From assembly GCA_040399745.1 (NCBI GenBank), contig JBBARP010000001.1:240511-304510 (forward strand): DNA of 64,000 bases, written 5' to 3'. The stretch comes from Bdellovibrionia bacterium (GTDB lineage Bacteria > Bdellovibrionota > UBA1018). Of the stretch, positions 3,055 to 18,372 are shown one piece after another. Every line of letters begins with the position of its first letter. The first letter of the stretch is position 1. The notes below the pieces were generated by a model. That model made no database searches and had not been told where the DNA came from. It saw only the letters and a program-made list of their open reading frames with translations. Made by a program: the position numbers and the translations under genes.

Positions 3055-5256
3055 ATGCGTAATGAGATCATCCGCGACCTCGTGTCCCGGAGTCCCCGGA
3101 AATTTGACCCGCCCCGAGATGAGCAGGGTCGTCGTCTGAAGGTGTCTGAGTTCTACGGAATGAACACCTTCGACCTTCACCAAATGCGCGAGAAACTCCC
3201 AAAGGATGTTTTCTCGAAGCTGCAACAAACCATCGAGACCGGTCGGAAGCTCGATGCAGAAGTGGCTAACACCGTTGCCCACGCCATCAAAGAATGGGCG
3301 ATTTCACGCGGCGTCTCGCACTTCACTCACTGGTTTCAGCCGCAGACGGGCTCGACCGCCGAGAAGCACGAAGCTTTCATCAACTTCGACGATCACAAAC
3401 GAGTGATCGAGAAGTTTACCGGTGCTCAGCTCATTCAATCCGAGCCGGATGCTTCGAGTTTTCCCTCGGGCGGAATGCGCACCACTTTTGAGGCCCGCGG
3501 CTACACGGCCTGGGACCCCACTTCACCCGTCTTCATCATGGAAGGTGCGGGCACGAAAACGCTTTGCGTGCCTTCGGTCTTCATCAGCTACCACGGCGAT
3601 GCGCTGGACGAGAAAACCGCACTCCTTCGTTCGATGGAAGCTTTGTCGACCCAAGCATCATTGCTCCTTCAGAAGATCGGCCTTTCTCCGCGCCGAGTGA
3701 TTCCTACTTTGGGTGTAGAACAAGAGTACTTCCTGATTGATCGCGCGTTTTCTCAGCTTCGTCCGGATTTGATCATGACGGGTAGAACGCTGGTGGGCGG
3801 ACAGCCTCCGAAAGGTCAGCAGCTGGAAGATCACTACTTCGGTTCGATTCCTGCGCGCGTGCAGGGCTTCATGGCCGAAATGGAGCATGAGCTTTATAAG
3901 CTCGGTGTTCCGGTCAAAGCACGTCACAACGAAGTGGCGCCTTCTCAGTACGAGACGGCTCCGATTTTCGAAGAAGCCAACATCGCGACCGATCACAATC
4001 AACTGGTCATGGAAGTGCTCAGAAAAGTAGCGCTTCGCCATCAGTTCTCGGTACTCCTGCACGAGAAGCCCTTTGCTGGCGTGAATGGTTCGGGAAAACA
4101 CAATAACTGGTCACTCATGATCTCGGCTCCGGGTACCGACATCGACGGCGAAAACCTGCTCGACCCAGGTAAAACGCCCCACGAGAACATCCGCTTCCTT
4201 CTTTGCTTGGCGGCAGTTCTCAAAGGTGTGCACACCCACGCAGGACTTCTGCGCGCGGGCATTGCGTCTGCTGGGAATGATCATCGCTTGGGCGCAAACG
4301 AAGCTCCTCCGGCCATCATTTCGGTGTTTCTCGGAAACTTGCTCGACCGCATCTTGAACGAGATCGAATCGGGCAATTTCGGAGGCCAAGGCGCCGAGGC
4401 TGCTGTGATTCGATTGGGAGTTTCCAAGATCCCAGAAGTGATGAAAGACAACACGGACCGCAATCGAACGAGTCCGTTTGCTTTTACCGGCAACAAATTC
4501 GAGTTCCGTGCTGTGGGTTCGTCGGCATCCGTGGCGTTCCCGGTCACCTTGGTCAATGCGGCTGCAGCCGATGGCTTTGAGCAAGTGACGAAGCTTCTTC
4601 AATCGAAGCTGGATTCCGGGAAGCGCTTGGATGAAGCCTGCCTGGAAACGGTTCGCGAAGTGGTGATAGCCACCAAAGCCATTCGGTTTGAAGGCAATAA
4701 CTACTCAGAAGAGTGGGTTATTGAGGCCGAAAAACGCGGCCTCCTGAACCTGCGAAAAACGCCGGAAGCTTTGGAACAGCTGGTTTCGAAGTCGGCGACC
4801 GAGATGCTCCCACGCCTGGGTATCTTCACGGCCGCAGAACTTCAGTCGCGCTACCATGTGCGTTTGGAGCGCTACATCAAGAACCTGTTGATCGAAGTCG
4901 ATACGCTGCGCTCGATGGTCGATACGCAGATTCAATCGGCTTGTTTTGAGTACCACGGAGTTTTGATGACCCAAGTGGCCCAAGCGAAAGCTTTGGGAAT
5001 GTGGGCGCCTCAGCTTCGCTTGGCCGAGCGCATGGGCGGACTCCTCGAAGCTCTTCAGCAGCGTCGCGACGCCCTGGAAGCGGCGATGAAGAAGTTCGAC
5101 GACACTTCAGGTGAGTCGGAAAAAGCCGTGCTTTTGGCAGGGCCGGTATCCGAAGCGATGCTTGAAGTTCGCGGAGTTTGTGACGAGCTCGAATCCATCA
5201 TGGATGACTCGCGCTGGCCGCTTCCGAAGTACCGCGAAATGCTGTTCTTGGCCTAA
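3055..5256 (+). CDS. glnN: Glutamine synthetase type III
   Basis: HFTHWFQP, AEKH, EPDASSFP, HNEVAP, NGSGKHNNWS, RLGANEAPP, DRNRTSPFAF, WPLPKY; SD AAAGGA before ATG 3055. Confidence 0.95.
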   Translation: MRNEIIRDLVSRSPRKFDPPRDEQGRRLKVSEFYGMNTFDLHQMREKLPKDVFSKLQQTIETGRKLDAEVANTVAHAIKEWAISRGVSHFTHWFQPQTGSTAEKHEAFINFDDHKRVIEKFTGAQLIQSEPDASSFPSGGMRTTFEARGYTAWDPTSPVFIMEGAGTKTLCVPSVFISYHGDALDEKTALLRSMEALSTQASLLLQKIGLSPRRVIPTLGVEQEYFLIDRAFSQLRPDLIMTGRTLVGGQPPKGQQLEDHYFGSIPARVQGFMAEMEHELYKLGVPVKARHNEVAPSQYETAPIFEEANIATDHNQLVMEVLRKVALRHQFSVLLHEKPFAGVNGSGKHNNWSLMISAPGTDIDGENLLDPGKTPHENIRFLLCLAAVLKGVHTHAGLLRAGIASAGNDHRLGANEAPPAIISVFLGNLLDRILNEIESGNFGGQGAEAAVIRLGVSKIPEVMKDNTDRNRTSPFAFTGNKFEFRAVGSSASVAFPVTLVNAAAADGFEQVTKLLQSKLDSGKRLDEACLETVREVVIATKAIRFEGNNYSEEWVIEAEKRGLLNLRKTPEALEQLVSKSATEMLPRLGIFTAAELQSRYHVRLERYIKNLLIEVDTLRSMVDTQIQSACFEYHGVLMTQVAQAKALGMWAPQLRLAERMGGLLEALQQRRDALEAAMKKFDDTSGESEKAVLLAGPVSEAMLEVRGVCDELESIMDDSRWPLPKYREMLFLA

Positions 5257-8821: not shown

Positions 8822-10552
8822 ATGTCTCTCCAGCTTGCCGAGCTTCTTCAGAAGGACAAGATCATTACGTCCGCTCAGCTTCAGGAATCCGTGGGCGCCG
8901 CGCGCGATCATGGAAAGGAGCACGTCCGTTTTCTGATTGATCAGAAATACGTCTCGGAGACGAAGCTTCTCTACTACTTAAGCCAGAAATTCGGCCTGGC
9001 ATCGGTCAACATCGCAAAATTTGATATCGCGTCTGAAGTCGCAAAAATCCTGACTTCTGACCAAGCATTCAAGTACCAAGCGATACCGATTCAATCCAAT
9101 CCCACGACCGTGGTGCTTGCCGTTTGCGATCCCACGAAAGTGGCGCAGATCGAAGATCTGAAGTTCCAAGTGAAGCGCGCGGTCGAAGTGGTGCTGACCA
9201 CTTTTTCGGCCTTTGATGGCGCGATGGAAAAGCACTTCGGCTCGAACCACGCCGTGGGCAACGCCATTGCCCAGTACGAAAAAAGTCAGAAAAAATCGAC
9301 TGCTGCTGAGCAGGCCGAAGCGGGTCCAGTCCTAGCGCTTGAGATGAATCAAATTCACGAGATCGATCCGGGCAAAGGCCCCAATATCGATGCACCCGTG
9401 ATTGCGCTCGTGAACGGGATTCTCAGCGAAGCCGTGCGCCGAAAGGCCTCCGATATTCACTGCGAGCCCTACGAGAAACGCTTCCGCGTCCGGATGCGGG
9501 TAGACGGCGTCCTTTACGAGACGGCGCAAATTCCCGTCGAAATGAAGCGGGCTGTGATTGCGCGCCTCAAAGTGATGGCGCGACTCGATATCTCCGAATC
9601 CCGGATTCCCCAAGACGGCCGCATGAAGCTGAAGTTCGGCAATCAAGAGATCGACTTCCGGGTGAACTCCATGCCCACGATCTTCGGCGAAAAAGTAGTG
9701 CTTCGTCAGTTGAACAAGTCCAACGTGAACTTGAAGCTCGATGCCTTGGGTTTTGAGACCGAGCAGATGAAGACTTTCAAAAAGGGGATCTATTCCCCGA
9801 CAGGCATGGTGTTGGTCACGGGCCCGACGGGTTCAGGAAAAACCACCACTCTTTATTCAGCCCTGATGGAGCTGAACCAGATTTCAGACAACGTTTCGAC
9901 TGCGGAGGATCCGGTCGAATACAACCTAGAAGGCATTAACCAGGTCCAAGTGAATAAGGACGTGGGCCTCACCTTTCCAGCCGTTCTTCGCGCCCTTTTG
10001 CGCCAAGATCCGGACGTGATTCTGGTGGGGGAAGTGCGAGATTACGAAACGGCGGAAGTGGCCATTCAGGCTGCGCTGACGGGCCACTTGGTGCTCTCCA
10101 CGCTTCACACCAATGATGCTCCTTCCACGATCGTTCGTTTGACGAACATGGGAATCGAGCCGTTCCTCGTCGTCGCTTCGCTGAACACCATCGTGGCTCA
10201 GCGCCTGCTTCGCCGACTCTGTACGGAATGCGCGGTCGATCGTGTGCTTCCGAAGGAAAAGATCGCGGAATTCGGCTTTGATCCGGCACGTGCCGACAAA
10301 TTGAAATTCAGAGAGCCGCGGGGTTGTTCTCAGTGCAACAACACGGGCTACCGCGGACGAATGGCCATTTACGAGGTCATGGAATTCAGTCAGGCCTTGA
10401 AAGAAATGGTTCTACGCGGGGATAGCGTTTTGGATTTGAAGCGCCGAGCAGTCAAGGACGGCATGCAAACTTTGCGGGTCTCTGCTCTTTCAAAAGCAGC
10501 CGCAGGCCTCACCTCAGTAGAAGAGGCTCTGACCCTGACAATGGAGAACTAA
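8822..10552 (+). CDS. pilB: Type IV pilus extension ATPase PilB
   Basis: ASDIHCEP, GPTGSGKTTT, EDPVEY, LRQDPDVILVGEVRD, STLHTND, tetracysteine CTEC/CSQC. Confidence 0.95.
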   Translation: MSLQLAELLQKDKIITSAQLQESVGAARDHGKEHVRFLIDQKYVSETKLLYYLSQKFGLASVNIAKFDIASEVAKILTSDQAFKYQAIPIQSNPTTVVLAVCDPTKVAQIEDLKFQVKRAVEVVLTTFSAFDGAMEKHFGSNHAVGNAIAQYEKSQKKSTAAEQAEAGPVLALEMNQIHEIDPGKGPNIDAPVIALVNGILSEAVRRKASDIHCEPYEKRFRVRMRVDGVLYETAQIPVEMKRAVIARLKVMARLDISESRIPQDGRMKLKFGNQEIDFRVNSMPTIFGEKVVLRQLNKSNVNLKLDALGFETEQMKTFKKGIYSPTGMVLVTGPTGSGKTTTLYSALMELNQISDNVSTAEDPVEYNLEGINQVQVNKDVGLTFPAVLRALLRQDPDVILVGEVRDYETAEVAIQAALTGHLVLSTLHTNDAPSTIVRLTNMGIEPFLVVASLNTIVAQRLLRRLCTECAVDRVLPKEKIAEFGFDPARADKLKFREPRGCSQCNNTGYRGRMAIYEVMEFSQALKEMVLRGDSVLDLKRRAVKDGMQTLRVSALSKAAAGLTSVEEALTLTMEN

Positions 10553-10557
10553 CGCTC

Positions 10558-11640
10558 ATGGCGCGAGTCGGACTTCCAGCACTACTCAAAGCGATGGTGG
10601 ATCAGGACGCTTCTGACCTTCACATCACGGTGGGCGTGCCTCCTGAGATGCGGATTCAGGGGAAAATGACCAAAGTGAAGACCGACGTCCTCACGCACCA
10701 GGACACCAAGGAAATCTGTTACTCGGTTTTGACCGACGCTCAAAAAAGGGATTTCGAGCAGAACCTCGAAGTCGACTTTTCCTTCGGCATTAAAGATGTG
10801 GCCCGGTTCCGGGGCAATTTGTTTTACCAACGGGGTGGCGTGGCAGGCGTGTTTCGGCGAATTCCGCTTGAGATTCCCGATTTCAACGCGCTCGGGCTTC
10901 CTCAGGTCTTGAAGAAAATCATTCGACGCCCGAACGGGCTGATCTTGGTCACGGGCCCCACGGGTTCGGGGAAATCAACCTCGCTTGCGGGCCTGCTCGA
11001 TATTCTGAACCGCGAAGAGTACGGCCACTTGGTGACCGTTGAAGACCCGATCGAGTTTGTTCATCCGCACAAAAACTGCATCGTGAACCAGCGCGAAGTG
11101 GGCCAGGACACAAAAAGCTTTGGTAGCGCACTGAAACGCCTCCTTCGTCAGGACCCGGACTTCATTTTGGTGGGCGAACTTCGGGATGCCGAAACCATCG
11201 AAAGCGCACTGACTTTGGCTGAAACAGGCCACTTGGTGTTTGGCACGCTCCACACCAATAACGCCGTTCAATCGATTAACCGAATCGTGAACGTTTTTCC
11301 GCCACACCAGCAGCCGCAGATTCGCCAGGTGCTGAGCTTCACGCTTCAAGCGGTCATGTGTCAGCTTCTCTTGCCGAGGAGCTACCAACCGGGCCGCTGT
11401 CTCGTGTACGAGCTATTGATTCCGAATATGGCCATCCGGAACCTGATTCGCGAAGATAAGCTGCATCAGGTTTATTCCGCCATGCAAGCGGGCCAAGAAG
11501 AATCGGGCATGCAGACCATGAACCAGAGTATCCTGGCTCAAGTGAAGGCTGGGGTGCTCTCGAAGCAAGATGCTTTGGATGCCTCGACCATGCCTGAAGA
11601 AATTGCCAAAGCCTTAGGGCAAATTCAGGATAAGCGATGA
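10558..11640 (+). CDS. pilT: Type IV pilus retraction ATPase PilT
   Basis: GPTGSGKSTS, EDPIEF, LAETGHLVFGTLHT, AIRNLIRE motif. Confidence 0.95.
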   Translation: MARVGLPALLKAMVDQDASDLHITVGVPPEMRIQGKMTKVKTDVLTHQDTKEICYSVLTDAQKRDFEQNLEVDFSFGIKDVARFRGNLFYQRGGVAGVFRRIPLEIPDFNALGLPQVLKKIIRRPNGLILVTGPTGSGKSTSLAGLLDILNREEYGHLVTVEDPIEFVHPHKNCIVNQREVGQDTKSFGSALKRLLRQDPDFILVGELRDAETIESALTLAETGHLVFGTLHTNNAVQSINRIVNVFPPHQQPQIRQVLSFTLQAVMCQLLLPRSYQPGRCLVYELLIPNMAIRNLIREDKLHQVYSAMQAGQEESGMQTMNQSILAQVKAGVLSKQDALDASTMPEEIAKALGQIQDKR

Positions 11641-11652
11641 GGCTTCTGAGAC

Positions 11653-12885
11653 ATGTCTGATTACACTTACGTCGGGGTTGATAAGTCCGGCAAAAAAGTG
11701 ATGGGTTCCGTGACGGCGCCTACTGAAGGCGACCTTCGAATGATGCTGCGTCAGCAGGGCATTCGGCCCACGAAAGTGGCGTTGTCATCGAAAGAAGGCA
11801 CACGCCAACTCACGATGGCGAACCTGTTTAAGGGAAGCGGGCCGTCGGTTCCCTTGGAAGTGATGCTGATCTTTACCCGCCAGCTTTACGTCTTGGTGAG
11901 TTCCGGCATTCCTTTGATTCAGTCGATCGAAACTCTAGCGGATCAAGCCAACCATCCCGCTCTGAAGCAGATTTTGGGTGATGTTCGGGCGCGCGTCACT
12001 TCGGGCGCCTACTTCTGGGAGTCGCTATCGCTCTATCCCCGCGCTTTTTCAAAACTCTATGTTTCGCTGATCCGTGCAGGCGAAAGCTCAGGCTCTCTCG
12101 ACGAAATGCTGAAGCGCTTGACGGGCTACATGGAAGACTCAAACCGCCTGCGCCGACTTTTGAAGTCAGCCATGATCTATCCCATTGCCGTCATATCGGT
12201 CGGGATCGCGGTCATCGCGGCCATGATGATTTTCGTGATTCCGAAGTTCGAAGAGCTTCTGACCGCAAGCGGCCAAGAGCTGCCTTGGATTACTCAGTTG
12301 GTTTTGAATTCATCGCGCTTCATGGTTTCCAACCTGCTTTACATCGTCGCCGGCGCCGTAGCGGGTGGATACATGCTGCTTCGCTATTTCCGAAGCCCTG
12401 AAGGAAAAGCACTGCTGGACCGTGTGGTCTTTTCGGTTCCGATTTTCGGGCCAATGACACAAAAAGGCGCCGTAGCGCGGTTCTCGCGCACCATGCAGAC
12501 CTTGCTTGCAGCGGGTGTTTCGCTTTTGGACGCCATCGATATTTGCCGAACCACGATCGATAACGCCGTGGTGGAAGCGGCTGTGGCGAAGATTCGAACC
12601 GAAGTCGAGGCGGGCAACCGCTTAGGTGTGGTGGTGAGTCGTCTAGATGTGTTTCCGAAAATGGCCGTTCAGATGATCTCAGTTGGCGAGGCCTCAGGTT
12701 CACTCGATCAGATGCTCGAAAAAGTGGCCGATTTTTATGAAGCCGAAGTGGAAGCGGCTGTGGCCGGGATGTCCAAGCTCATTGAGCCCTTCATCTTGGT
12801 GTTCTTAGGCGGCACCGTGGGCGGGCTTTTGATCGCCATGTACCTGCCGATCTTTAAATTGGCCGGCGGCGGCGGCACGGAATGA
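11653..12885 (+). CDS. pilC: Type IV pilus platform protein PilC
   Basis: FTRQL, SLIRAGESSG, KSAMIYP, GEASGSLDQML, IAMYLPIF. Confidence 0.95.
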   Translation: MSDYTYVGVDKSGKKVMGSVTAPTEGDLRMMLRQQGIRPTKVALSSKEGTRQLTMANLFKGSGPSVPLEVMLIFTRQLYVLVSSGIPLIQSIETLADQANHPALKQILGDVRARVTSGAYFWESLSLYPRAFSKLYVSLIRAGESSGSLDEMLKRLTGYMEDSNRLRRLLKSAMIYPIAVISVGIAVIAAMMIFVIPKFEELLTASGQELPWITQLVLNSSRFMVSNLLYIVAGAVAGGYMLLRYFRSPEGKALLDRVVFSVPIFGPMTQKGAVARFSRTMQTLLAAGVSLLDAIDICRTTIDNAVVEAAVAKIRTEVEAGNRLGVVVSRLDVFPKMAVQMISVGEASGSLDQMLEKVADFYEAEVEAAVAGMSKLIEPFILVFLGGTVGGLLIAMYLPIFKLAGGGGTE

Positions 12886-12895
12886 GGCATTTGAA

Positions 12896-13921
12896 GTGAA
12901 GCCGATCCTTGGCCAAAGCAAAGCGGTTCATGAGCTTCTGAAGTGGATCGCAAAAGTGGCGGCCGCAAAGACGAACGTGCTTGTCATCGGCGAGAGCGGC
13001 ACGGGTAAGGAACTCGTCGCCCGAATGATTCACGACACCGGCCCGCTGAAGGACAAAGCCTTTGTTCCTGTGAACTGCGGCGCCATTCCTGCAAACCTGA
13101 TTGAAAGCGAGCTTTTCGGTCATAAGCGGGGCAGCTTCACAGGCGCCGTGACCGAGAAGGACGGCCTTTTTCAAGTGGCCCACGGCGGCACTTTGTTTTT
13201 AGACGAAGTGGGGGAACTTCCCCTAGCGCTTCAAGTGAAGCTGCTTCGAGCGATTCAAGAGCGCACCATTCGAAAAGTGGGCGGGACGGACGACGTGAAA
13301 GTCGACGTCCGGATCATTGCTGCAACGAACCGCGACTTAGAAGCGGCGGTGAGGCAGGGAAGTTTCCGCGAGGACCTTTACTACCGCCTGAACGTGATTC
13401 AGCTCAAAACCCCGCCCCTTCGCGAACGAGAAGGGGATGTCAGGCTTCTGGCCGATCACTTCTTGAAGCGGTTCTCGGAGCGCTCAGGCCGTAAGGTCGA
13501 AGGTTTCACCGACGAAGCCTGGGCTGCGCTCGATGCGCATTCTTGGCCAGGAAACGTGCGGGAACTCGAGAACGTGATTGAGCGCGCTGTGACTTTGGCG
13601 GCAGCGCTTGGGAAGATTGGGCCCGAGCAATTGCCTTTTGTGAGGGCGAAGAATTCGCAGGCATCAGCTCAGCAGGTTGCAGCAGGTGGCGGAGCGGATA
13701 GCGCTCTATCGGCTGGGACTCCGGACTCTTCGGGCTTTCGCCTTCCTTCGCCCGATTTTTCACAAGGCTCGGTACCGCTTCAGAAAATCCTCGAACAAGT
13801 GGAGCGCACTTACTTTGAAGCCGCTTTGAAAGCAGTGGGGGGAGTTCGCCCGCGAGCGGCTGATCTTCTTCAGCTTCCGGTGAAGACTTTCCAGACCCGC
13901 GCGAAGAAGCTCGGGGTTTGA
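12896..13921 (+). CDS. PilR-like sigma-54 activator lacking a receiver domain
   Basis: GESGTGKE, ESELFGH, GSFTGA, LFLDEVGE, FREDLYYRL, WPGNVRELEN, Fis-type HTH; starts 10 nt after pilC with no REC domain. Confidence 0.85.
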   Translation: MKPILGQSKAVHELLKWIAKVAAAKTNVLVIGESGTGKELVARMIHDTGPLKDKAFVPVNCGAIPANLIESELFGHKRGSFTGAVTEKDGLFQVAHGGTLFLDEVGELPLALQVKLLRAIQERTIRKVGGTDDVKVDVRIIAATNRDLEAAVRQGSFREDLYYRLNVIQLKTPPLREREGDVRLLADHFLKRFSERSGRKVEGFTDEAWAALDAHSWPGNVRELENVIERAVTLAAALGKIGPEQLPFVRAKNSQASAQQVAAGGGADSALSAGTPDSSGFRLPSPDFSQGSVPLQKILEQVERTYFEAALKAVGGVRPRAADLLQLPVKTFQTRAKKLGV

Positions 13922-13945
13922 AGTTTTGAGCCAGCCCTAAAAGCA

Positions 13946-13981
13946 GAAACCCCGCAGGCCCAAGGGGCGCTGCGGGGTTTC
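13946..13981. terminator. Probable bidirectional intrinsic terminator between pilR-like and pilA
   Basis: 12-bp inverted repeat GAAACCCCGCAG/CTGCGGGGTTTC with short T or A runs on both sides, between convergent genes. Confidence 0.75.
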
Positions 13982-14012
13982 CAGTTTTAAGACTGAGACT
14001 TGAAGCGCGAGA

Positions 14013-14660
14013 TCAGACGCCGTTTTGGGCGTTGTTCAGAGTCTTTGCCTGATTGATCGTCCACCGGTCACCACCGCCGTTGCCAGCAGCGGCTGCGGCG
14101 GCCACGGCCGGGGCCGATGACACCCTGCCTACAGCTGTCACAACAAAGACTGTCTGATTGACGTCGGATACACTAGGAGCTTCGGCCAAAGCGGCGGCTG
14201 GAAGAATGAGGCCGCCTAATGCTGCCGTGGCGAGGTAGAAGTTCTGGTTCTGTGTCAAACCCGGGTCCGCCCCAACCCCCCCGCAGAACAGGGTCGCGGC
14301 TCCCGCGTTATCGAACATATAGGCGTCACAAGGTTGGTTGTTTGCAGGGCCGCAGGTGTCAACACCGGGATCGTTGATTCCCACCGTGTAGTACCGCTTG
14401 GCTCCTGCAGTGGATTCAAACCCAATGTCGTTCAGACAGGTCGTATACGTCCCCACTTCAGCGAAGTACGACTGAAGTGCCGTGTAGCTGGAAGCCAACA
14501 TCACCTTCGCTTCGCTCTGCCGTGCGCGGGCTTGGTACTTTTGGTAGTTCGGAATGGCCACTGCCGCCAGGATGCCGATGATGGCAACGACCACCATCAG
14601 TTCGACCAGCGTGAAGCCAGATTTCGAGATCAGCCGCTTCGGCATTTTAAGATTACTCAT
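14013..14660 (-). CDS. pilA: Type IVa major pilin
   Basis: Class III signal KSG|[29 protein letters not shown]; SD AAAGGG; four Cys in the globular domain. Confidence 0.93.
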
Positions 14661-14716
14661 AACGTTCCCTTTCTAGGTCCGTCTCATACAGCGAGCCCTC
14701 CACTCAGGATCGAAGT

Positions 14717-14732
14717 CTCAAGATACGTACCG
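14717..14732 (-). promoter_or_regulatory. Sigma-54-like promoter of pilA (non-canonical -12)
   Basis: Minus strand CGGTACGTATCTTGAG against consensus TGGCACGNNNNTTGCW; GA replaces GC; about 57 nt upstream of ATG. Confidence 0.45.
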
Positions 14733-14835
14733 CGATCGATCGTGAGTTTTTGGTATTGATATCAGTGTAAACAGTTCAATTCAGTCGTGCAAACTCTTTT
14801 GAATTCCTCTTGCCTTCGCTAAGGTAGCTCTTCGG

Positions 14836-15846
14836 ATGGGGACATTGAGGGCAGAGCGTGTCGCAAAGGACACAGGTGCAACGAGTGCTCGACGCGAAGC
14901 AAGCGTCGGAACGCTGACGCTCGCTCTAGGCTTAGGCCTATTCGCGCTTCAAGCAGGTGTTCTTTTGCCGAAGCTTCAGCGCCTTTGGGGAAGCGCGGGC
15001 GAAGCCCTGCATGCTCCGGCTCCAGCCCGTGCGAGTGAAAAAGACGCATGGAACCCCGCTTGGGCAAGGACCTTGAGTCTCGGCCAAGGCCAAGCCTTTG
15101 CAGATTGGCTTTTTGTCCGCGCCTTGATTGAGGACGCTCCTTCTCGTCCGCTGAAGGCCGGCGAAAGGTCGCGCGCATCGGTATGGTTGGACTTGGCCTC
15201 CAGGCTTGATCCCGCCTATTTCGAAATGCACCAAAACGGTGCCCTCTATTTAAGTGTGGCCCTGCACGATACCGATGGGGGCCTTGCGCTGGTTTCGCGC
15301 GCCAACGAATGGCGAAAATCGCAACTTCCTTCTTGGCCTGTATCGTTTCAAGAAACCGAGTGGAAAAGCGCTTGGTCCCTTCCCGTGATTCAGGCCTATT
15401 TATATCTTTTCGAAAAAGAAAACTTAGTCGAGGCAGGGAAAGCGTATCAAGAAGCTGCCGCTCATCCGAAGGCGCCAGCGTATCTGAAGAGCTTGGGGCA
15501 CCGCTTTGACAGCCCGGGCGGAATTTATGAGGCAGGAGCCAGAATCTTAGGCTTCATGATTCCGGCCGCAGCACCGGGGGCCCCCAGGGAAGCCCTGATT
15601 CGAAAGCGCGCGGTGCTGATCGTTCACAATCAGCTTTGGCAGATCGATCAGGATTTTTCGGCCTACCTAAAAAAGATGCGAGTTGCACCCACGCCACAGG
15701 CCAGGCACAGGGCTTGGGATAACTTTCGAGCGCGCTTAGCTCCGACTGACGCTTTAGGTGGACGGTGGACTTTTGATGCGAAGACCGGACAGGTGGGAAC
15801 AACGACAAAGCTCGAAAAGGTCTTTGGCGTAGGAGAAGGAAACTAA
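14836..15846 (+). CDS. Pilus-associated membrane protein, PilG (myxobacterial type)-like
   Basis: N-terminal TM, helical-repeat body (RLDPAYFEMH, W.LP...AY.Y); lies between pilA and an ABC ATPase/permease as in pilA-pilG-pilH-pilI-pilD. Confidence 0.55.
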   Translation: MGTLRAERVAKDTGATSARREASVGTLTLALGLGLFALQAGVLLPKLQRLWGSAGEALHAPAPARASEKDAWNPAWARTLSLGQGQAFADWLFVRALIEDAPSRPLKAGERSRASVWLDLASRLDPAYFEMHQNGALYLSVALHDTDGGLALVSRANEWRKSQLPSWPVSFQETEWKSAWSLPVIQAYLYLFEKENLVEAGKAYQEAAAHPKAPAYLKSLGHRFDSPGGIYEAGARILGFMIPAAAPGAPREALIRKRAVLIVHNQLWQIDQDFSAYLKKMRVAPTPQARHRAWDNFRARLAPTDALGGRWTFDAKTGQVGTTTKLEKVFGVGEGN

Positions 15847-15848
15847 CC

Positions 15849-16784
15849 ATGGCGGCACGCTTAGAGATCAAAGAGGTTCATCAATCCTTTGCTACGGGGT
15901 TTTGGCTCAGGCCCGCTCACATCCTTCGCGGCGTGAGTCTCGAAGTGCCCGAGGGTTCCGTCTACGGGTTTTTAGGAGCAAACGGAGCTGGAAAGACCAC
16001 TCTGATTCATCTCATTACCGGACTAAGAAAACCGAAGTCGGGCTCTCTCACTTTGGACGGGGTGGAAGTTCGCTCGCGCGAGGCGCGCTCCCGCTTAGGC
16101 TATTTGCCCGAGCGCCCTTATTTTCATGAGCACCTGACCGGCGAAGGGCTTCTTCAGTATTTCGGAGCCCTGTCTAACTTGTCTGGAAAGAAGTTAGAAA
16201 CCCGGATCACGGAAGTTTTGGATCAAGTGAACTTGCGAGACGCTCGCCGCGTTCGTCTTCGGAACTTCTCAAAAGGCATGCTTCAGCGTTTGGGCCTAGC
16301 TCAAGCGGTTCTTCACGAGCCTGATTTTCTGGTCCTCGATGAACCCATGAGCGGCCTAGATCCTTTAGGGAGAAAAGAGATTCGCGAGCTGATCCTCAGG
16401 CAAGCAGAACTCGGGAAAACGGTTTTCTTCAGTACGCACGTGATTTCAGACGTTGAGACGCTTTGCGACCGAGTGGGCTTGATCTCGAAAGGCCAAATGG
16501 TCCGCACCGGGAAAGTGGCCGAGCTTTTGTCGGAACGATCGGGCGGCACGGAAGTATGGTTAGAAGGATCTGCCGCGCCGAGTGGCGCAGATACCTGGAC
16601 CGGGGTTGATTCGGTTCGTGTCAATCCAGACGGAGTCCGGGTTCTGGCACGCGAAGGGACGGATCTGGGCGCACTGGTTTCGGAACTTCGGTCGCAAGGC
16701 GCAAAGCTTCGAGCCGTTCTACCCGTTCGGCCCAGTTTAGAAGATTACTTCGGTTCGATTGGCCGCAAGGAGGATCGCTCATGA
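15849..16784 (+). CDS. ABC transporter ATPase, PilH-like
   Basis: GANGAGKTT, signature FSKGM, LDEP, STH. Confidence 0.9.
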   Translation: MAARLEIKEVHQSFATGFWLRPAHILRGVSLEVPEGSVYGFLGANGAGKTTLIHLITGLRKPKSGSLTLDGVEVRSREARSRLGYLPERPYFHEHLTGEGLLQYFGALSNLSGKKLETRITEVLDQVNLRDARRVRLRNFSKGMLQRLGLAQAVLHEPDFLVLDEPMSGLDPLGRKEIRELILRQAELGKTVFFSTHVISDVETLCDRVGLISKGQMVRTGKVAELLSERSGGTEVWLEGSAAPSGADTWTGVDSVRVNPDGVRVLAREGTDLGALVSELRSQGAKLRAVLPVRPSLEDYFGSIGRKEDRS

Positions 16785-17593
16785 GTCGGGGGCCTGGGCT
16801 TTTTCGAGTGGCGGGGGCGGTGGCGAAAGTCACGTTCCGAGAAATCTTAGGAGACCGGATTCTTTACGGAGTCTTGGTTCTTGCTGTGCTGTTCTTGGGG
16901 CTTGCGATTTTGGGCACCCAGCTTAGTTTTGTCAGTCCCGAGCGGTTGATCATCGATTTTGGGTTGGCAGCGCTTGGGATTTCAGGAGCGCTGCTTGGGA
17001 TTTTTCTTGGGTCCTCTTCCTTGAACCGGGAATTTGAGCGGCGAACGATTCAAGTGGCGCTCTCGCATCCGATTGGGCGTGGTCAGTTTCTGTTCGGAAA
17101 ATTCTTGGGCGTGGTTCTGGCTCTAGGCGTGAACTGGCTGCTTCTTGGGCTGGTCTTTACTCTGGTGGCAGGCCTCTTCTCGGTCGGCGGTTTTGGAAGC
17201 TTGTTTGGGCGGTTGGACGGAGCCATGGGGGCAGCGTTTTTCCTGCTCTGGCTTCAAAGCGCGGTGTTGGCAGCCGTCGCGCTCCTTTTTTCGACCTACT
17301 CCAGCACCTTAGTCTCGGCCTTCGTCACTTTCGGAGTTTTCTTAGTGGGAAGCTCGGTGACGGATCTGGGCTCGATTGCTTCAAAATCAGAATCCCCGAC
17401 GCTTCGGGCGGTGGCCTGGACGGTGGTTCGTGCAGTGCCGAATCTCGAGTACTTTAACCTGCGCGAAAAAGTGTCTTACGATTTGGCGCTTGCGCCGGGT
17501 TTAGTGCCCGTTTCGATGCTCTACGCCTTGGCCTGGATGGGGGCGTGTTTAGTCTTGGCTTCTTTCTTGGTTCGCACGAAGGACACTCCGTGA
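16781..17593 (+). CDS. ABC transporter permease, PilI-like
   Basis: Multiple TM helices, REFERRTI and GKFLG motifs; overlaps ATPase stop. Confidence 0.85.
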   Translation: MSRGPGLFRVAGAVAKVTFREILGDRILYGVLVLAVLFLGLAILGTQLSFVSPERLIIDFGLAALGISGALLGIFLGSSSLNREFERRTIQVALSHPIGRGQFLFGKFLGVVLALGVNWLLLGLVFTLVAGLFSVGGFGSLFGRLDGAMGAAFFLLWLQSAVLAAVALLFSTYSSTLVSAFVTFGVFLVGSSVTDLGSIASKSESPTLRAVAWTVVRAVPNLEYFNLREKVSYDLALAPGLVPVSMLYALAWMGACLVLASFLVRTKDTP

Positions 17594-18372
17594 CTCTCGA
17601 ACAATTTCACTTAGGCATCACCACGGCGCTTGGGCTTCTGATTGGCAGCTTTTTGAATGTCGTCATTCACCGCCTACCTGAGGGGCAGTCGATTGTTCGG
17701 CCGCGAAGTTCCTGCCCCAGGTGCCGAAAGCCGGTTGCTTGGTTTGATAATCTTCCCATCCTTTCTTGGCTTCTTCTGAAGGGTAGATGCCGCCACTGCA
17801 AAAAATCCATTTCGGTTCGTTACCCGGTCGTCGAGGCCTTGACCGCTTGTTTGTTTCTGGCGGCCTTTCACCGGGGTGAGTGGGGGACGACTCTTTGGAT
17901 TCGGGATTGGCCGTTTCTCGCAGCGCTGATCGCTGTATCGTTTATCGACCTTCAGCACCGAATCATACCTGATGAGTTGTCGTGGGGCGGCTTGGCCTTT
18001 GGCCTTCTCACTTCTGTCTTAGACCCAGAACTTGGGTGGCAGGGAGCTTTGATCGGTTCAGCGGTGGGCTTTGTCTTCTTCTATGCGCTGGCGGCAGGCT
18101 ACGAGCGTTGGTCGGGGAAGATGGGACTGGGCGGGGGCGATATTAAGCTTCTTGCGATGCTCGGCGCTTTCTTAGGCTGGCGAGGCGTTTTTGCGACCGT
18201 ACTTCTCAGTTCGATCGTGGGCAGCTTGGTCGGTGTGGGCTGGGCGCTCGCGAGTCGTAAAAAAGAGGTGATGGGGCTCGCGATTCCGTACGGACCCTTT
18301 CTGGTGCTTGGGGCCTTGTGCTACTTTCTGTTCGGAGGCCAACCGTGGTTCCAATTCATCCTACCGATCTAG
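17590..18372 (+). CDS. pilD: Prepilin peptidase/N-methyltransferase
   Basis: GSFLNVVIHRLP, CPRC and CRHC, FIDLQH, GLGGGDIKL, IPYGPFL; GTG 17590 overlaps the pilI stop. Confidence 0.95.
   Translation: MTLEQFHLGITTALGLLIGSFLNVVIHRLPEGQSIVRPRSSCPRCRKPVAWFDNLPILSWLLLKGRCRHCKKSISVRYPVVEALTACLFLAAFHRGEWGTTLWIRDWPFLAALIAVSFIDLQHRIIPDELSWGGLAFGLLTSVLDPELGWQGALIGSAVGFVFFYALAAGYERWSGKMGLGGGDIKLLAMLGAFLGWRGVFATVLLSSIVGSLVGVGWALASRKKEVMGLAIPYGPFLVLGALCYFLFGGQPWFQFILPI

What the first reader, a model, noticed from the sequence alone, without database searches (positions are those of the whole stretch)
12886..13921. Receiver-less PilR and missing PilS: rewired pilin regulation
In deltaproteobacteria pilC is followed by the pilS-pilR two-component pair that senses membrane pilin. 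Here an AAA+/HTH-only activator (GSFTGA, PilR-like HTH) starts 10 nt after pilC, with no kinase and no REC domain. Sensor-less activators are constitutive or controlled by a trans-acting inhibitor (PspF-PspA, HrpRS-HrpV), so an unknown anti-activator or constitutive pilA expression is implied.
Basis: partly seen in the sequence, partly recalled or inferred. Interest (0 to 1): 0.65.

Follow-up and report, generated by a model that had tools for sequence, protein, structure and literature searches.

The report
Receiver-less PilR gene after pilC
The gene after pilC is a real, selected descendant of the pilus regulator PilR that lost its sensor kinase and phosphorylation domain in one old deletion. 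This form is shared by a whole order of Bdellovibrio-like bacteria, and the neighbouring pilin gene no longer has the promoter type it would need.

Summary
Window 12896-13921 (+) encodes a 341-aa sigma-54 activator made of an AAA+ domain and a Fis-type HTH. It starts 10 nt after pilC, and its frame opens only 63 nt upstream, so no receiver domain can fit.

- **Not an artefact or a one-off.** More than 100 homologues (57-65% identical, 330-375 aa) have the same build. All 13 relatives' loci examined place the gene directly after pilC.
- **Descent from PilR.** Other Bdellovibrionota have pilC-pilS-pilR(REC). In a tree these PilRs and the receiver-less proteins form one clade (support 100), which excludes all 15 paralogues of this genome. 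The receiver-less forms are monophyletic (99).
- **No PilS.** The genome has no PilS orthologue.
- **Selection.** The gene is under purifying selection (dN/dS 0.05-0.09).
The adjacent pilA has no -24/-12 promoter, here or in 16 other receiver-less genomes. The three nearest pilSR-bearing relatives do have one. Three same-family relatives have lost the gene altogether.
- **Likely mechanism.** The lost linker is NtrC1-like, which predicts an always-on activator whose amount follows pilBTC expression. Its targets are unknown.
- **New lead.** A clade-specific motif (RLPAPDFxxG) may be a docking site for a partner protein.

The parts
8822..10552 (+). pilB (type IV-A pilus assembly ATPase), first gene of the pilB-pilT-pilC-activator string
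   Evidence: TIGR02538 696 bits, above cut-off; Pfam T2SSE + MshEN
10558..11640 (+). pilT (retraction ATPase)
   Evidence: TIGR01420 476.7 bits, above cut-off
11653..12885 (+). pilC (platform protein)
   Evidence: Pfam T2SSF x2; best NCBIfam model is the Myxococcus-type PilC
12884..12895 (+). pilC stop, GAGG Shine-Dalgarno and 10-nt spacer before the GTG start. In relatives the two genes overlap by 4 nt or abut.
   Evidence: Sequence; gene coordinates in relatives
12896..13921 (+). Receiver-less PilR descendant (341 aa): AAA+ sigma-54 activator plus HTH
   Evidence: Pfam; frame limits; orthology tree; dN/dS 0.05-0.09; AF2 mean pLDDT 90
12989..13012 (+). Walker A, GESGTGKE (aa 32-39)
   Evidence: invariant in 116 homologues
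13130..13147 (+). Sigma-54 contact loop GSFTGA (aa 79-84), a GAFTGA variant also found in four of the seven REC-bearing PilR orthologues
   Evidence: 120 of 120 homologues read GSFTGA
13196..13216 (+). Walker B region, FLDEVGE (aa 101-107)
13667..13735 (+). Variable, low-complexity interdomain linker (aa 258-280)
   Evidence: AF2 pLDDT below 50 at residues 272-278; highest local dN/dS, about 0.2
13739..13792 (+). Clade-specific linear motif RLPSPDFSQGSVPLQKIL (aa 282-299)
   Evidence: [DE]F..G in 107 of 120 receiver-less homologues, with F and G invariant; absent from 7 REC-bearing PilRs and 15 own paralogues; ordered in the AF2 model (pLDDT 86-91)
13790..13918 (+). Fis-type HTH domain. The recognition helix (13868-13918, LQLPVKTFQTRAKKLGV) departs from the PilR-clade consensus.
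   Evidence: Pfam HTH_8; alignments; HTH dN/dS 0.04-0.08
13940..13988 (.). GC-rich hairpin (CCCCGCAG...CTGCGGGG) flanked by A and T runs: a likely two-way terminator between the convergent activator and pilA genes
   Evidence: Sequence; terminator scan hit on the minus strand; conserved in L049 and L050
14013..14660 (-). pilA, the only major-pilin-type gene found in the genome, convergent with the activator gene
   Evidence: Pfam N_methyl and Pilin_PilA, NCBIfam Myxococcus-type PilA N-terminus; genome-wide pilin-motif scan
14661..14835 (.). pilA / pilG-like divergent intergenic region. It has no -24/-12 (sigma-54) promoter and is 99% identical to a relative whose coding DNA is about 90% identical.
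14836..18372 (+). pilG-like gene, pilH (ABC ATPase), pilI (ABC-2 permease) and pilD (prepilin peptidase): the rest of the Myxococcus-type cluster
   Evidence: Pfam; synteny in relatives

Best explanation
The gene is a functional, receiver-less descendant of PilR. One ancestral deletion in an order-level lineage of Bdellovibrionota removed pilS together with the adjoining 5' part of pilR, which encodes the REC domain and its coiled-coil linker. The AAA+ and HTH part was left fused to the end of pilC, with coupled or overlapping start and stop codons.

The lost receiver and linker were of the NtrC1/DctD type. In that type the unphosphorylated receiver holds the ATPase apart. The remaining protein should therefore assemble and hydrolyse ATP without any phosphorylation signal. 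Its activity would then be set mainly by its amount, which follows pilB-pilT-pilC expression. A partner protein docking on the clade-specific RLPAPDFxxG motif may add further control.

The classical PilS-PilR-pilA feedback loop is gone. The neighbouring pilA has no sigma-54 promoter. In this species the DNA-reading helix has also changed, and the change is conserved. The activator must therefore act on sigma-54 promoters elsewhere, and these were not identified.

Shown: domain build, ancestry, absence of PilS, purifying selection, absence of a -24/-12 promoter at pilA. Inferred: constitutive assembly, control by dose, and the role of the motif.
For: - Domain build and frame limits.
- Family: more than 100 homologues of 330-375 aa at 57-65% identity, all with Walker A at residues 33-51.
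- Position: the gene follows pilC directly in ten receiver-less loci taken from genomes and in three metagenome or genome contigs.
- Ancestral state: relatives outside the clade have pilC, then a 426-563-aa multi-TM histidine kinase, then a 467-493-aa REC-bearing PilR. B. bacteriovorus is reported to have pilB-pilT1-pilC-pilS-pilR (PMC4237445).
- Tree: REC-bearing and receiver-less PilRs form a clade with SH-aLRT 100 that excludes all 15 own paralogues; the receiver-less forms are monophyletic at 99.
- Linker type: the best PDB match of the nearest REC-bearing orthologue is NtrC1 (1ny5, 4l4u), aligned continuously through REC, linker and AAA+ with one 2-residue gap. Negative control by such receivers is established knowledge (Lee 2003 and Doucleff 2005, as listed in PMC7175178).
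- Selection: dN/dS 0.089 and 0.052 overall, AAA+ 0.04-0.06, HTH 0.04-0.08.
- pilA promoter: no GG-N10-GC site upstream of pilA here and none convincing (best score 16 of 21.7) in 16 other receiver-less genomes. Sites scoring 19.5-20 of 21.7 occur at -58 to -70 in the three nearest pilSR-bearing relatives, G094, G149 and G106.
- Motif specific to the clade.
Against: - No experiment shows that the protein oligomerises, hydrolyses ATP or activates anything.
- Some receiver-deleted activators (classical NtrC) are inactive rather than constitutive. The NtrC1-type assignment rests on sequence alignment alone.
- No target promoter or binding site was found. No sigma-54 promoter lies in the pilus cluster, upstream of pilB or ribF, or in the relatives' clusters.
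- Three genomes of the same family lack the gene (G127, G087, G017). Several members have degenerate or truncated HTHs. Its role is therefore dispensable in some lineages.
- Across all REC-bearing genomes surveyed, only 6 of about 26 show a sigma-54 promoter at the best pilA-like gene. The contrast with 0 of 17 is not significant on raw counts (Fisher p = 0.066).
Confidence: 0.6

Rival explanations
1. The protein is held in check by a trans-acting anti-activator, as PspA does for PspF, HrpV for HrpS and FleN for FleQ. This would replace phosphorylation control, with the RLPAPDFxxG linker motif as the docking site. This rival can coexist with the best explanation.
For: Activators without a regulatory domain are classed as controlled by 'protein binding in trans' (PMC7175178, Table 1). 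A conserved linear motif appeared in exactly the clade that lost REC: 107 of 120 members, absent from REC-bearing orthologues and from paralogues. It is predicted ordered, though without secondary structure.
Against: No conserved neighbouring gene exists. Downstream genes differ between genomes: pilA, Fic, a glycosyltransferase, DUF8201. The motif may simply be an N-terminal extension of the HTH domain. No partner was identified.
Confidence: 0.2
2. It still activates the adjacent pilA, as in Myxococcus and Geobacter, through an atypical or unrecognised promoter. pilA would then be expressed constitutively.
For: Adjacency of the two genes is kept in most receiver-less genomes. The pilA upstream region is 99% conserved against a background of about 90%, so it is under constraint. 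A weak GG-N10-GA element (cGGTACgtatcTTGAg) lies about 60-75 nt before the ATG.
Against: No GG-N10-GC site occurs within 300 bp upstream of pilA, and none within about 360-460 bp in 7 further receiver-less genomes. The weak element is not conserved in the other receiver-less genomes. pilA persists with similar AT-rich upstream regions in genomes that have lost the activator (G127, G087). The recognition helix of the focal protein differs from the PilR consensus.
Confidence: 0.1
3. It acts only as a subunit of mixed rings with another sigma-54 activator, as FleT does with FleQ or HrpR with HrpS, and so modulates that partner's regulon.
For: The genome has 16 activators, 4 of them without an N-terminal domain. 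Some family members have lost the DNA-reading helix, as FleT has (earlier scan note e1-1447706).
Against: Most members (about 105 of 120) keep a canonical HTH. The focal HTH is under purifying selection, which argues for DNA binding of its own. No paired activator gene lies nearby.
Confidence: 0.08
4. It is a decaying relic of pilR without function, or an assembly artefact.
For: The gene has been lost in G127, G087, G017 and G122. HTH decay is seen in several lineages.
Against: dN/dS is 0.05-0.09 with an intact frame. All catalytic motifs are invariant in 116 sequences. The same build is found in independent ENA, Logan, NCBI and JGI assemblies.
Confidence: 0.03

Closest known systems
PilR of the PilS-PilR two-component system (Myxococcus xanthus, Geobacter, Pseudomonas aeruginosa; pilB-pilT1-pilC-pilS-pilR in Bdellovibrio bacteriovorus, PMC4237445)
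   Same: Positional and phylogenetic orthologue: same slot after pilC, one clade with the pilS-linked PilRs of the phylum, same GSFTGA loop. JGI's automatic naming calls the family PilR.
   Different: No REC domain, no linker and no PilS anywhere in the genome. The adjacent pilA lacks a sigma-54 promoter. The recognition helix is changed in this species.
NtrC1 (Aquifex aeolicus) and DctD: activators whose unphosphorylated receiver blocks ring assembly
   Same: The nearest REC-bearing orthologue aligns best with NtrC1 through REC, linker and AAA+. The focal protein corresponds to the isolated, self-assembling ATPase part.
   Different: Here the truncation is natural, fixed in a lineage, and retains an HTH. 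Activity was not measured.
PspF and HrpR/HrpS (activators with no regulatory domain, controlled by PspA or HrpV in trans; group 4 in PMC7175178)
   Same: Same AAA+ plus HTH two-domain build, with no N-terminal domain.
   Different: Not orthologous: the PspF model scores 281 bits against a cut-off of 443. No psp or hrp context and no known inhibitor gene nearby.
Nps/Npa-RpoN control of pilE in Neisseria (PMC6528607)
   Same: A precedent for a lineage changing its pilin promoter from sigma-54/PilR-type control to RpoD, with the PilS/PilR homologues altered.
   Different: In pathogenic Neisseria the Npa homologue lost the sigma-54-interaction and DNA-binding parts, or was fused. Here the opposite half (REC) was lost and the ATPase/HTH half is kept under selection.
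FleT of Cereibacter sphaeroides (AAA+ only)
   Same: Some members of this family (for example G117, G141) lack REC and have a truncated or degenerate DNA-reading helix, so approach the FleT build.
   Different: The focal protein and most of the family keep a folded HTH.

Membership tests
Bacterial enhancer-binding protein (sigma-54 activator, AAA+ clade 6) | Full-length sigma-54 interaction domain with Walker A, Walker B, arginine fingers and sensor II | tested here: met
   PF00158 positions 1-167 of 168, E 1.4e-71; GESGTGKE, FLDEVGE, FREDLYYRL and GNVRELEN present and invariant in the family
Bacterial enhancer-binding protein (sigma-54 activator, AAA+ clade 6) | GAFTGA loop that contacts sigma-54 | tested here: met
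   Variant GSFTGA. The same variant occurs in four of the seven REC-bearing PilR orthologues and in 120 of 120 homologues. Function of the variant was not assayed.
Bacterial enhancer-binding protein (sigma-54 activator, AAA+ clade 6) | The organism has sigma-54 | tested here: met
   One rpoN (Sigma54_DBD, E 1e-63) at C1:328946-329425; 91 strong -24/-12 sites in the genome
PilR (response regulator of PilS-PilR) | N-terminal receiver domain with a phospho-acceptor Asp | tested here: not met
   The AAA+ domain starts at residue 4, and the frame opens only 21 codons upstream of the start
PilR (response regulator of PilS-PilR) | Cognate PilS kinase (six-TM sensor), usually encoded next to it | tested here: not met
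   No gene lies between pilC and the activator. tblastn with four PilS proteins finds only kinase-core matches. The genome is 94.5% complete.
PilR (response regulator of PilS-PilR) | Common descent with pilS-linked PilR | tested here: met
   Same position after pilC; clade support 100 excluding all paralogues
PilR (response regulator of PilS-PilR) | Activates a sigma-54 promoter of the major pilin gene | tested here: not met
   No GG-N10-GC site upstream of pilA. This is a sequence test only; no expression data.
Group-4 activators (PspF, HrpR/S) | No regulatory domain; AAA+ plus HTH only | tested here: met
Group-4 activators (PspF, HrpR/S) | Dedicated protein inhibitor acting in trans (PspA, HrpV) | not testable with these tools
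   No conserved neighbouring gene. The clade-specific motif is only a lead.
Group-4 activators (PspF, HrpR/S) | Orthology to PspF | tested here: not met
   TIGR02974 scores 281 bits, cut-off 443.55
FleT-like AAA+-only activators | Lacks both the regulatory and the DNA-binding domain | tested here: not met
   HTH_8 is above the Pfam cut-off. Three C-terminal helices have pLDDT 91-96. HTH dN/dS is 0.04-0.08.

The most novel reading that the evidence does not exclude
After losing PilS and its receiver, this PilR lineage gained a new input. The conserved RLPAPDFxxG segment would be a docking site for a protein partner, for example a component or by-product of the pilus machine. That would create a previously undescribed activator/anti-activator pair that couples a sigma-54 regulon outside pilA to pilus assembly in predatory-type bacteria.
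Probability: 0.15. Interest if true: 0.7.

Novelty: new variant of a known kind. Interest (0 to 1): 0.5.

Why it matters
Type IV pili are needed for prey invasion in Bdellovibrio. Their pilin supply is classically governed by the PilS-PilR feedback loop.

Here a whole order-level lineage has removed the sensor and the phosphorylation switch. It has kept the ATPase engine under strong selection and has taken pilA off sigma-54 control.

- It is a natural counterpart of the laboratory receiver deletions used to define negative control in NtrC1 and DctD.
- It gives a graded series in related genomes: full PilSR, then receiver-less, then HTH-degenerate, then lost. That series can be used to study how a two-component activator is dismantled or redeployed.
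- It warns against annotating these genes as 'two-component response regulator PilR'.

The unknown target regulon and the clade-specific motif are concrete, testable questions.

Tried and rejected
1. **Assembly artefact.** Rejected. The same build is found in independent assemblies.
2. **Hidden REC in another frame or upstream.** Rejected.
3. **Split PilR with a stand-alone receiver.** tblastn with three PilR receiver-plus-linker segments gave best matches at the receivers of other full-length activators (C4, C8, C3, C1, C5, C10). Weaker hits elsewhere were not examined, and no PilR-specific stand-alone receiver stood out.
4. **Sigma-54 promoter near the gene.** None upstream of pilA, the pilG-like gene, pilB, ribF or the glutamine synthetase gene, and none conserved in relatives' clusters.
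5. **PilR box.** Repeats of the type TGACAATTTTG lie upstream of the sigma-54 pilA promoters of G149, G094 and G106. Genome-wide matches in this genome were no more than scattered. With the changed recognition helix the search is not informative.
6. **Riboswitch or structured leader in the ultra-conserved pilA upstream region.** No Rfam hit, and fold z-score 0.11.
7. **Sigma-70 consensus scan of the same region.** No hit at 9 of 12 or better. A TACACT hexamer preceded by TTGnnn at 16-17 nt recurs in four receiver-less genomes, but this is weak evidence.
8. **A pilin-like 551-aa gene with a nearby sigma-54 promoter (C1:105-108 kb).** Looked at as a possible target; nothing links it to pili.
9. 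**Literature.** Three searches found no description of receiver-less PilR in Bdellovibrionota.

Full report
**What is there.** Window 12896-13921 (+) is a 341-aa ORF with a GTG start. It begins 10 nt after the pilC stop, and a GAGG lies 8 nt before the start. Pfam finds a full sigma-54 interaction domain (residues 4-170, E 1.4e-71), the AAA+ lid (176-259) and a Fis-type HTH (299-338, 28.4 bits against a cut-off of 22). There is no receiver hit. The reading frame opens only at 12833, so no receiver can be hidden upstream. The surrounding genes form a Myxococcus-type pilus cluster:
- ribF, pilB, pilT and pilC upstream;
- a convergent pilA at 14013-14660 on the minus strand;
- then a pilG-like gene, the ABC pair pilH/pilI, pilD, and pilMNOPQ further on.

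**Genome context.** The window lies in a 2.7-Mb, 15-contig, 94.5%-complete genome. The genome has one rpoN and 16 sigma-54 activators. Four of these lack any N-terminal domain. tblastn with four PilS proteins from relatives finds only matches to kinase cores at 23-38% identity. None covers the multi-TM PilS sensor part. The kinases hit belong to other pairs. With PilR receiver-plus-linker segments as queries, the best matches are the receivers of other full-length activators. Weaker hits were not checked.

**It is a family trait, not an accident.** The protein search returned more than 100 proteins at 57-65% identity, all 330-375 aa with the same domain list. They come from MAGs named Oligoflexia, Bdellovibrionales or Bdellovibrionota by their sources, and JGI calls them PilR. 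Walker A sits at residues 33-51 in all 120 listed, so all lack a receiver. Three contigs from different sources show glutamine synthetase III, ribF, pilB, pilT, pilC and the activator in that order, with the activator start abutting the pilC stop. Close relatives at 93-95% identity, from other assemblies, have the same junction. An assembly artefact is excluded as far as it can be without reads.

**Ancestry.** A search of 151 genomes of the phylum showed short open frames (320-400 aa) only within the window's own order. Best matches elsewhere sit in frames of 460-520 aa. I combined this with a pilC search and 20 fetched loci. Three states appear:
- **Full PilSR.** pilC, a 426-563-aa multi-TM histidine kinase and a 467-493-aa REC-bearing PilR. 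Seen in G094 (same order), G106 and G149 (same class), and G131, G086, G067 and G105 (other families).
- **Receiver-less.** pilC followed directly by the short activator, in the window and nine other genomes of five families.
- **No activator.** G127, G087 and G017 (same family) and G122.

The first arrangement matches the published pilB-pilT1-pilC-pilS-pilR operon of B. bacteriovorus (PMC4237445).

In a maximum-likelihood tree the pilS-linked PilRs and the receiver-less proteins form one clade (SH-aLRT 100). This clade excludes all 15 paralogues of the window's genome. The receiver-less proteins are monophyletic (99). pilS and the REC-coding 5' end of pilR are contiguous, so one deletion accounts for both losses. 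That step is an inference.

**Is it functional?** Against the two close relatives, dN/dS is 0.089 and 0.052 over the whole gene, at dS 0.37-0.74. It is 0.04-0.06 in the AAA+ part and 0.04-0.08 in the HTH. These values are comparable to pilC and pilH. All catalytic motifs are invariant in 116 aligned members. GSFTGA is not a defect: it is also the motif of four of the seven REC-bearing PilR orthologues. AlphaFold2 gives mean pLDDT 90 with a well-defined three-helix C-terminal domain.

**The DNA-reading helix.** About 105 of the 120 receiver-less homologues keep the PilR-clade helix LGITFRSIRYRLKKLG. The window's species group (P0001-P0007) reads LQLPVKTFQTRAKKLGV, and that version is conserved within the group. 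A few other lineages have degenerate or truncated ends. In this species, then, DNA specificity has probably changed rather than decayed.

**The pilA link.** The 175-bp region upstream of pilA has no GG-N10-GC element on the pilA strand. A consensus search with up to two mismatches finds nothing there either. The same is true for nine receiver-less loci and seven further receiver-less genomes. By contrast, strong sites occur before pilA in the three nearest pilSR-bearing relatives, each scored out of a maximum of 21.7:
- G094: TTGGCCCTTGCATTGCACA at -58, score 19.5;
- G149: TTGGCAAGGGAATTGCGAC at -59, score 19.7;
- G106: TTGGCAGCGCTCTTGCAGC at -70, score 20.0.

Repeats of the type TGACAATTTTG lie upstream of these three promoters. 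Sites were also found in G056, G069 and G116.

A caution is needed. Only 6 of about 26 REC-bearing genomes show such a site at their best pilA-like gene, so the raw contrast with 0 of 17 gives Fisher p = 0.066. Against the three nearest outgroups alone it gives p = 0.0009. The inference that the receiver-less lineage lost sigma-54 control of pilA is phylogenetically reasonable but not proven. No sigma-54 promoter was found anywhere in the pilus cluster, upstream of pilB or ribF, or at conserved places in relatives' clusters. The genome as a whole has 91 strong sites, many before genes for secreted proteins. The target is therefore elsewhere and remains unknown.

**Mechanism proposed.** The nearest REC-bearing orthologue aligns best with Aquifex NtrC1 (1ny5, 4l4u), continuously through receiver, linker helix and ATPase. 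In NtrC1 and DctD the unphosphorylated receiver dimer prevents ring assembly, and removing it frees the ATPase. This is established knowledge (Lee 2003 and Doucleff 2005, as listed in PMC7175178).

I therefore expect the receiver-less protein to be active without a signal. Its amount would be tied to pilB-pilT-pilC through start/stop coupling. That coupling is a 10-nt gap with an SD here, and a 4-nt overlap or abutment in relatives.

An extra layer of control is possible. A motif R-[LIV]-P-[AS]-P-D-F-x-x-G-x-[ILV]-x-L lies just before the HTH. It is present in 107 of 120 receiver-less members and absent from all REC-bearing orthologues and all paralogues. It is modelled as ordered. It may bind a partner, in line with the rule that activators without a regulatory domain are controlled by proteins in trans (PMC7175178). 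No partner gene is conserved nearby.

**Comparison with known systems.**
- The protein is an orthologue of PilR by descent. It fails three defining features of a PilR response regulator: no receiver, no PilS and no sigma-54 pilin promoter.
- In build it matches group-4 activators (PspF, HrpR/S), but it is not related to them specifically.
- The change of a pilin promoter away from sigma-54 with alteration of the PilS/PilR homologues has a precedent in pathogenic Neisseria. There the opposite half of the activator was lost (PMC6528607).
My data agree on the family. They add that most members, including this one, keep a folded HTH.

**Verdict.** 'Missing PilS' is confirmed within a 94.5%-complete genome. 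'Constitutive pilA' is not supported, and an 'anti-activator' remains open. The finding is a natural, lineage-wide variant of a known regulator. It is of moderate interest, with a concrete unknown: the target regulon and the role of the motif.

Noticed in passing
window 14008-14507 (pilA C-terminal part) and 14661-14835: pilA is only 65-67% identical in protein to two close relatives whose neighbouring genes are 88-99% identical (dS about 1.0). In contrast, the pilA N-terminus and the whole 175-bp upstream region are 97-99% identical against a coding background of about 90%. This looks like pilin cassette replacement next to a tightly constrained control region. No Rfam family and no fold signal were found there.
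   Followed up: partly
genome C8:80318-81475, C8:87719-88714, C1:463741-464829: Three further sigma-54 activators without any N-terminal domain: one after metK, one directly upstream of flgB, and one preceded at 12 nt by its own -24/-12 site (TTGGCCCGAACGTTGCTTT). So 4 of the 16 activators in this genome are sensor-less.
   Followed up: partly
whole genome (G000): A simple weighted scan finds 91 strong -24/-12 sites. Many lie 0-60 nt before ORFs that begin with signal-peptide-like sequences, which suggests a large sigma-54 regulon of exported proteins.
   Followed up: no
G122:C41:9036-10262 and G132:C270:472-1683 (family f7, same order): Both pilC matches carry one in-frame TGA. G122 has no activator gene after pilC; G132's contig ends there. 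This could be a shared pseudogene or a recoding event.
   Followed up: no
L040 (G149) about 4350-4480; L038 (G094) upstream of pilA; L058 (G106): Repeats of the type GTGACAATTTTGAGC (twice, 32 bp apart in G149) lie upstream of the sigma-54 pilA promoters of pilSR-bearing relatives. They are candidate PilR enhancer sites for the canonical recognition helix.
   Followed up: partly
L052, L054, L072 and others (families f16, f20): Many genomes that keep pilS-pilR, including complete 3.7-3.9-Mb genomes, show no -24/-12 site before their best pilA-like gene. PilSR in much of this phylum may control something other than the major pilin.
   Followed up: no
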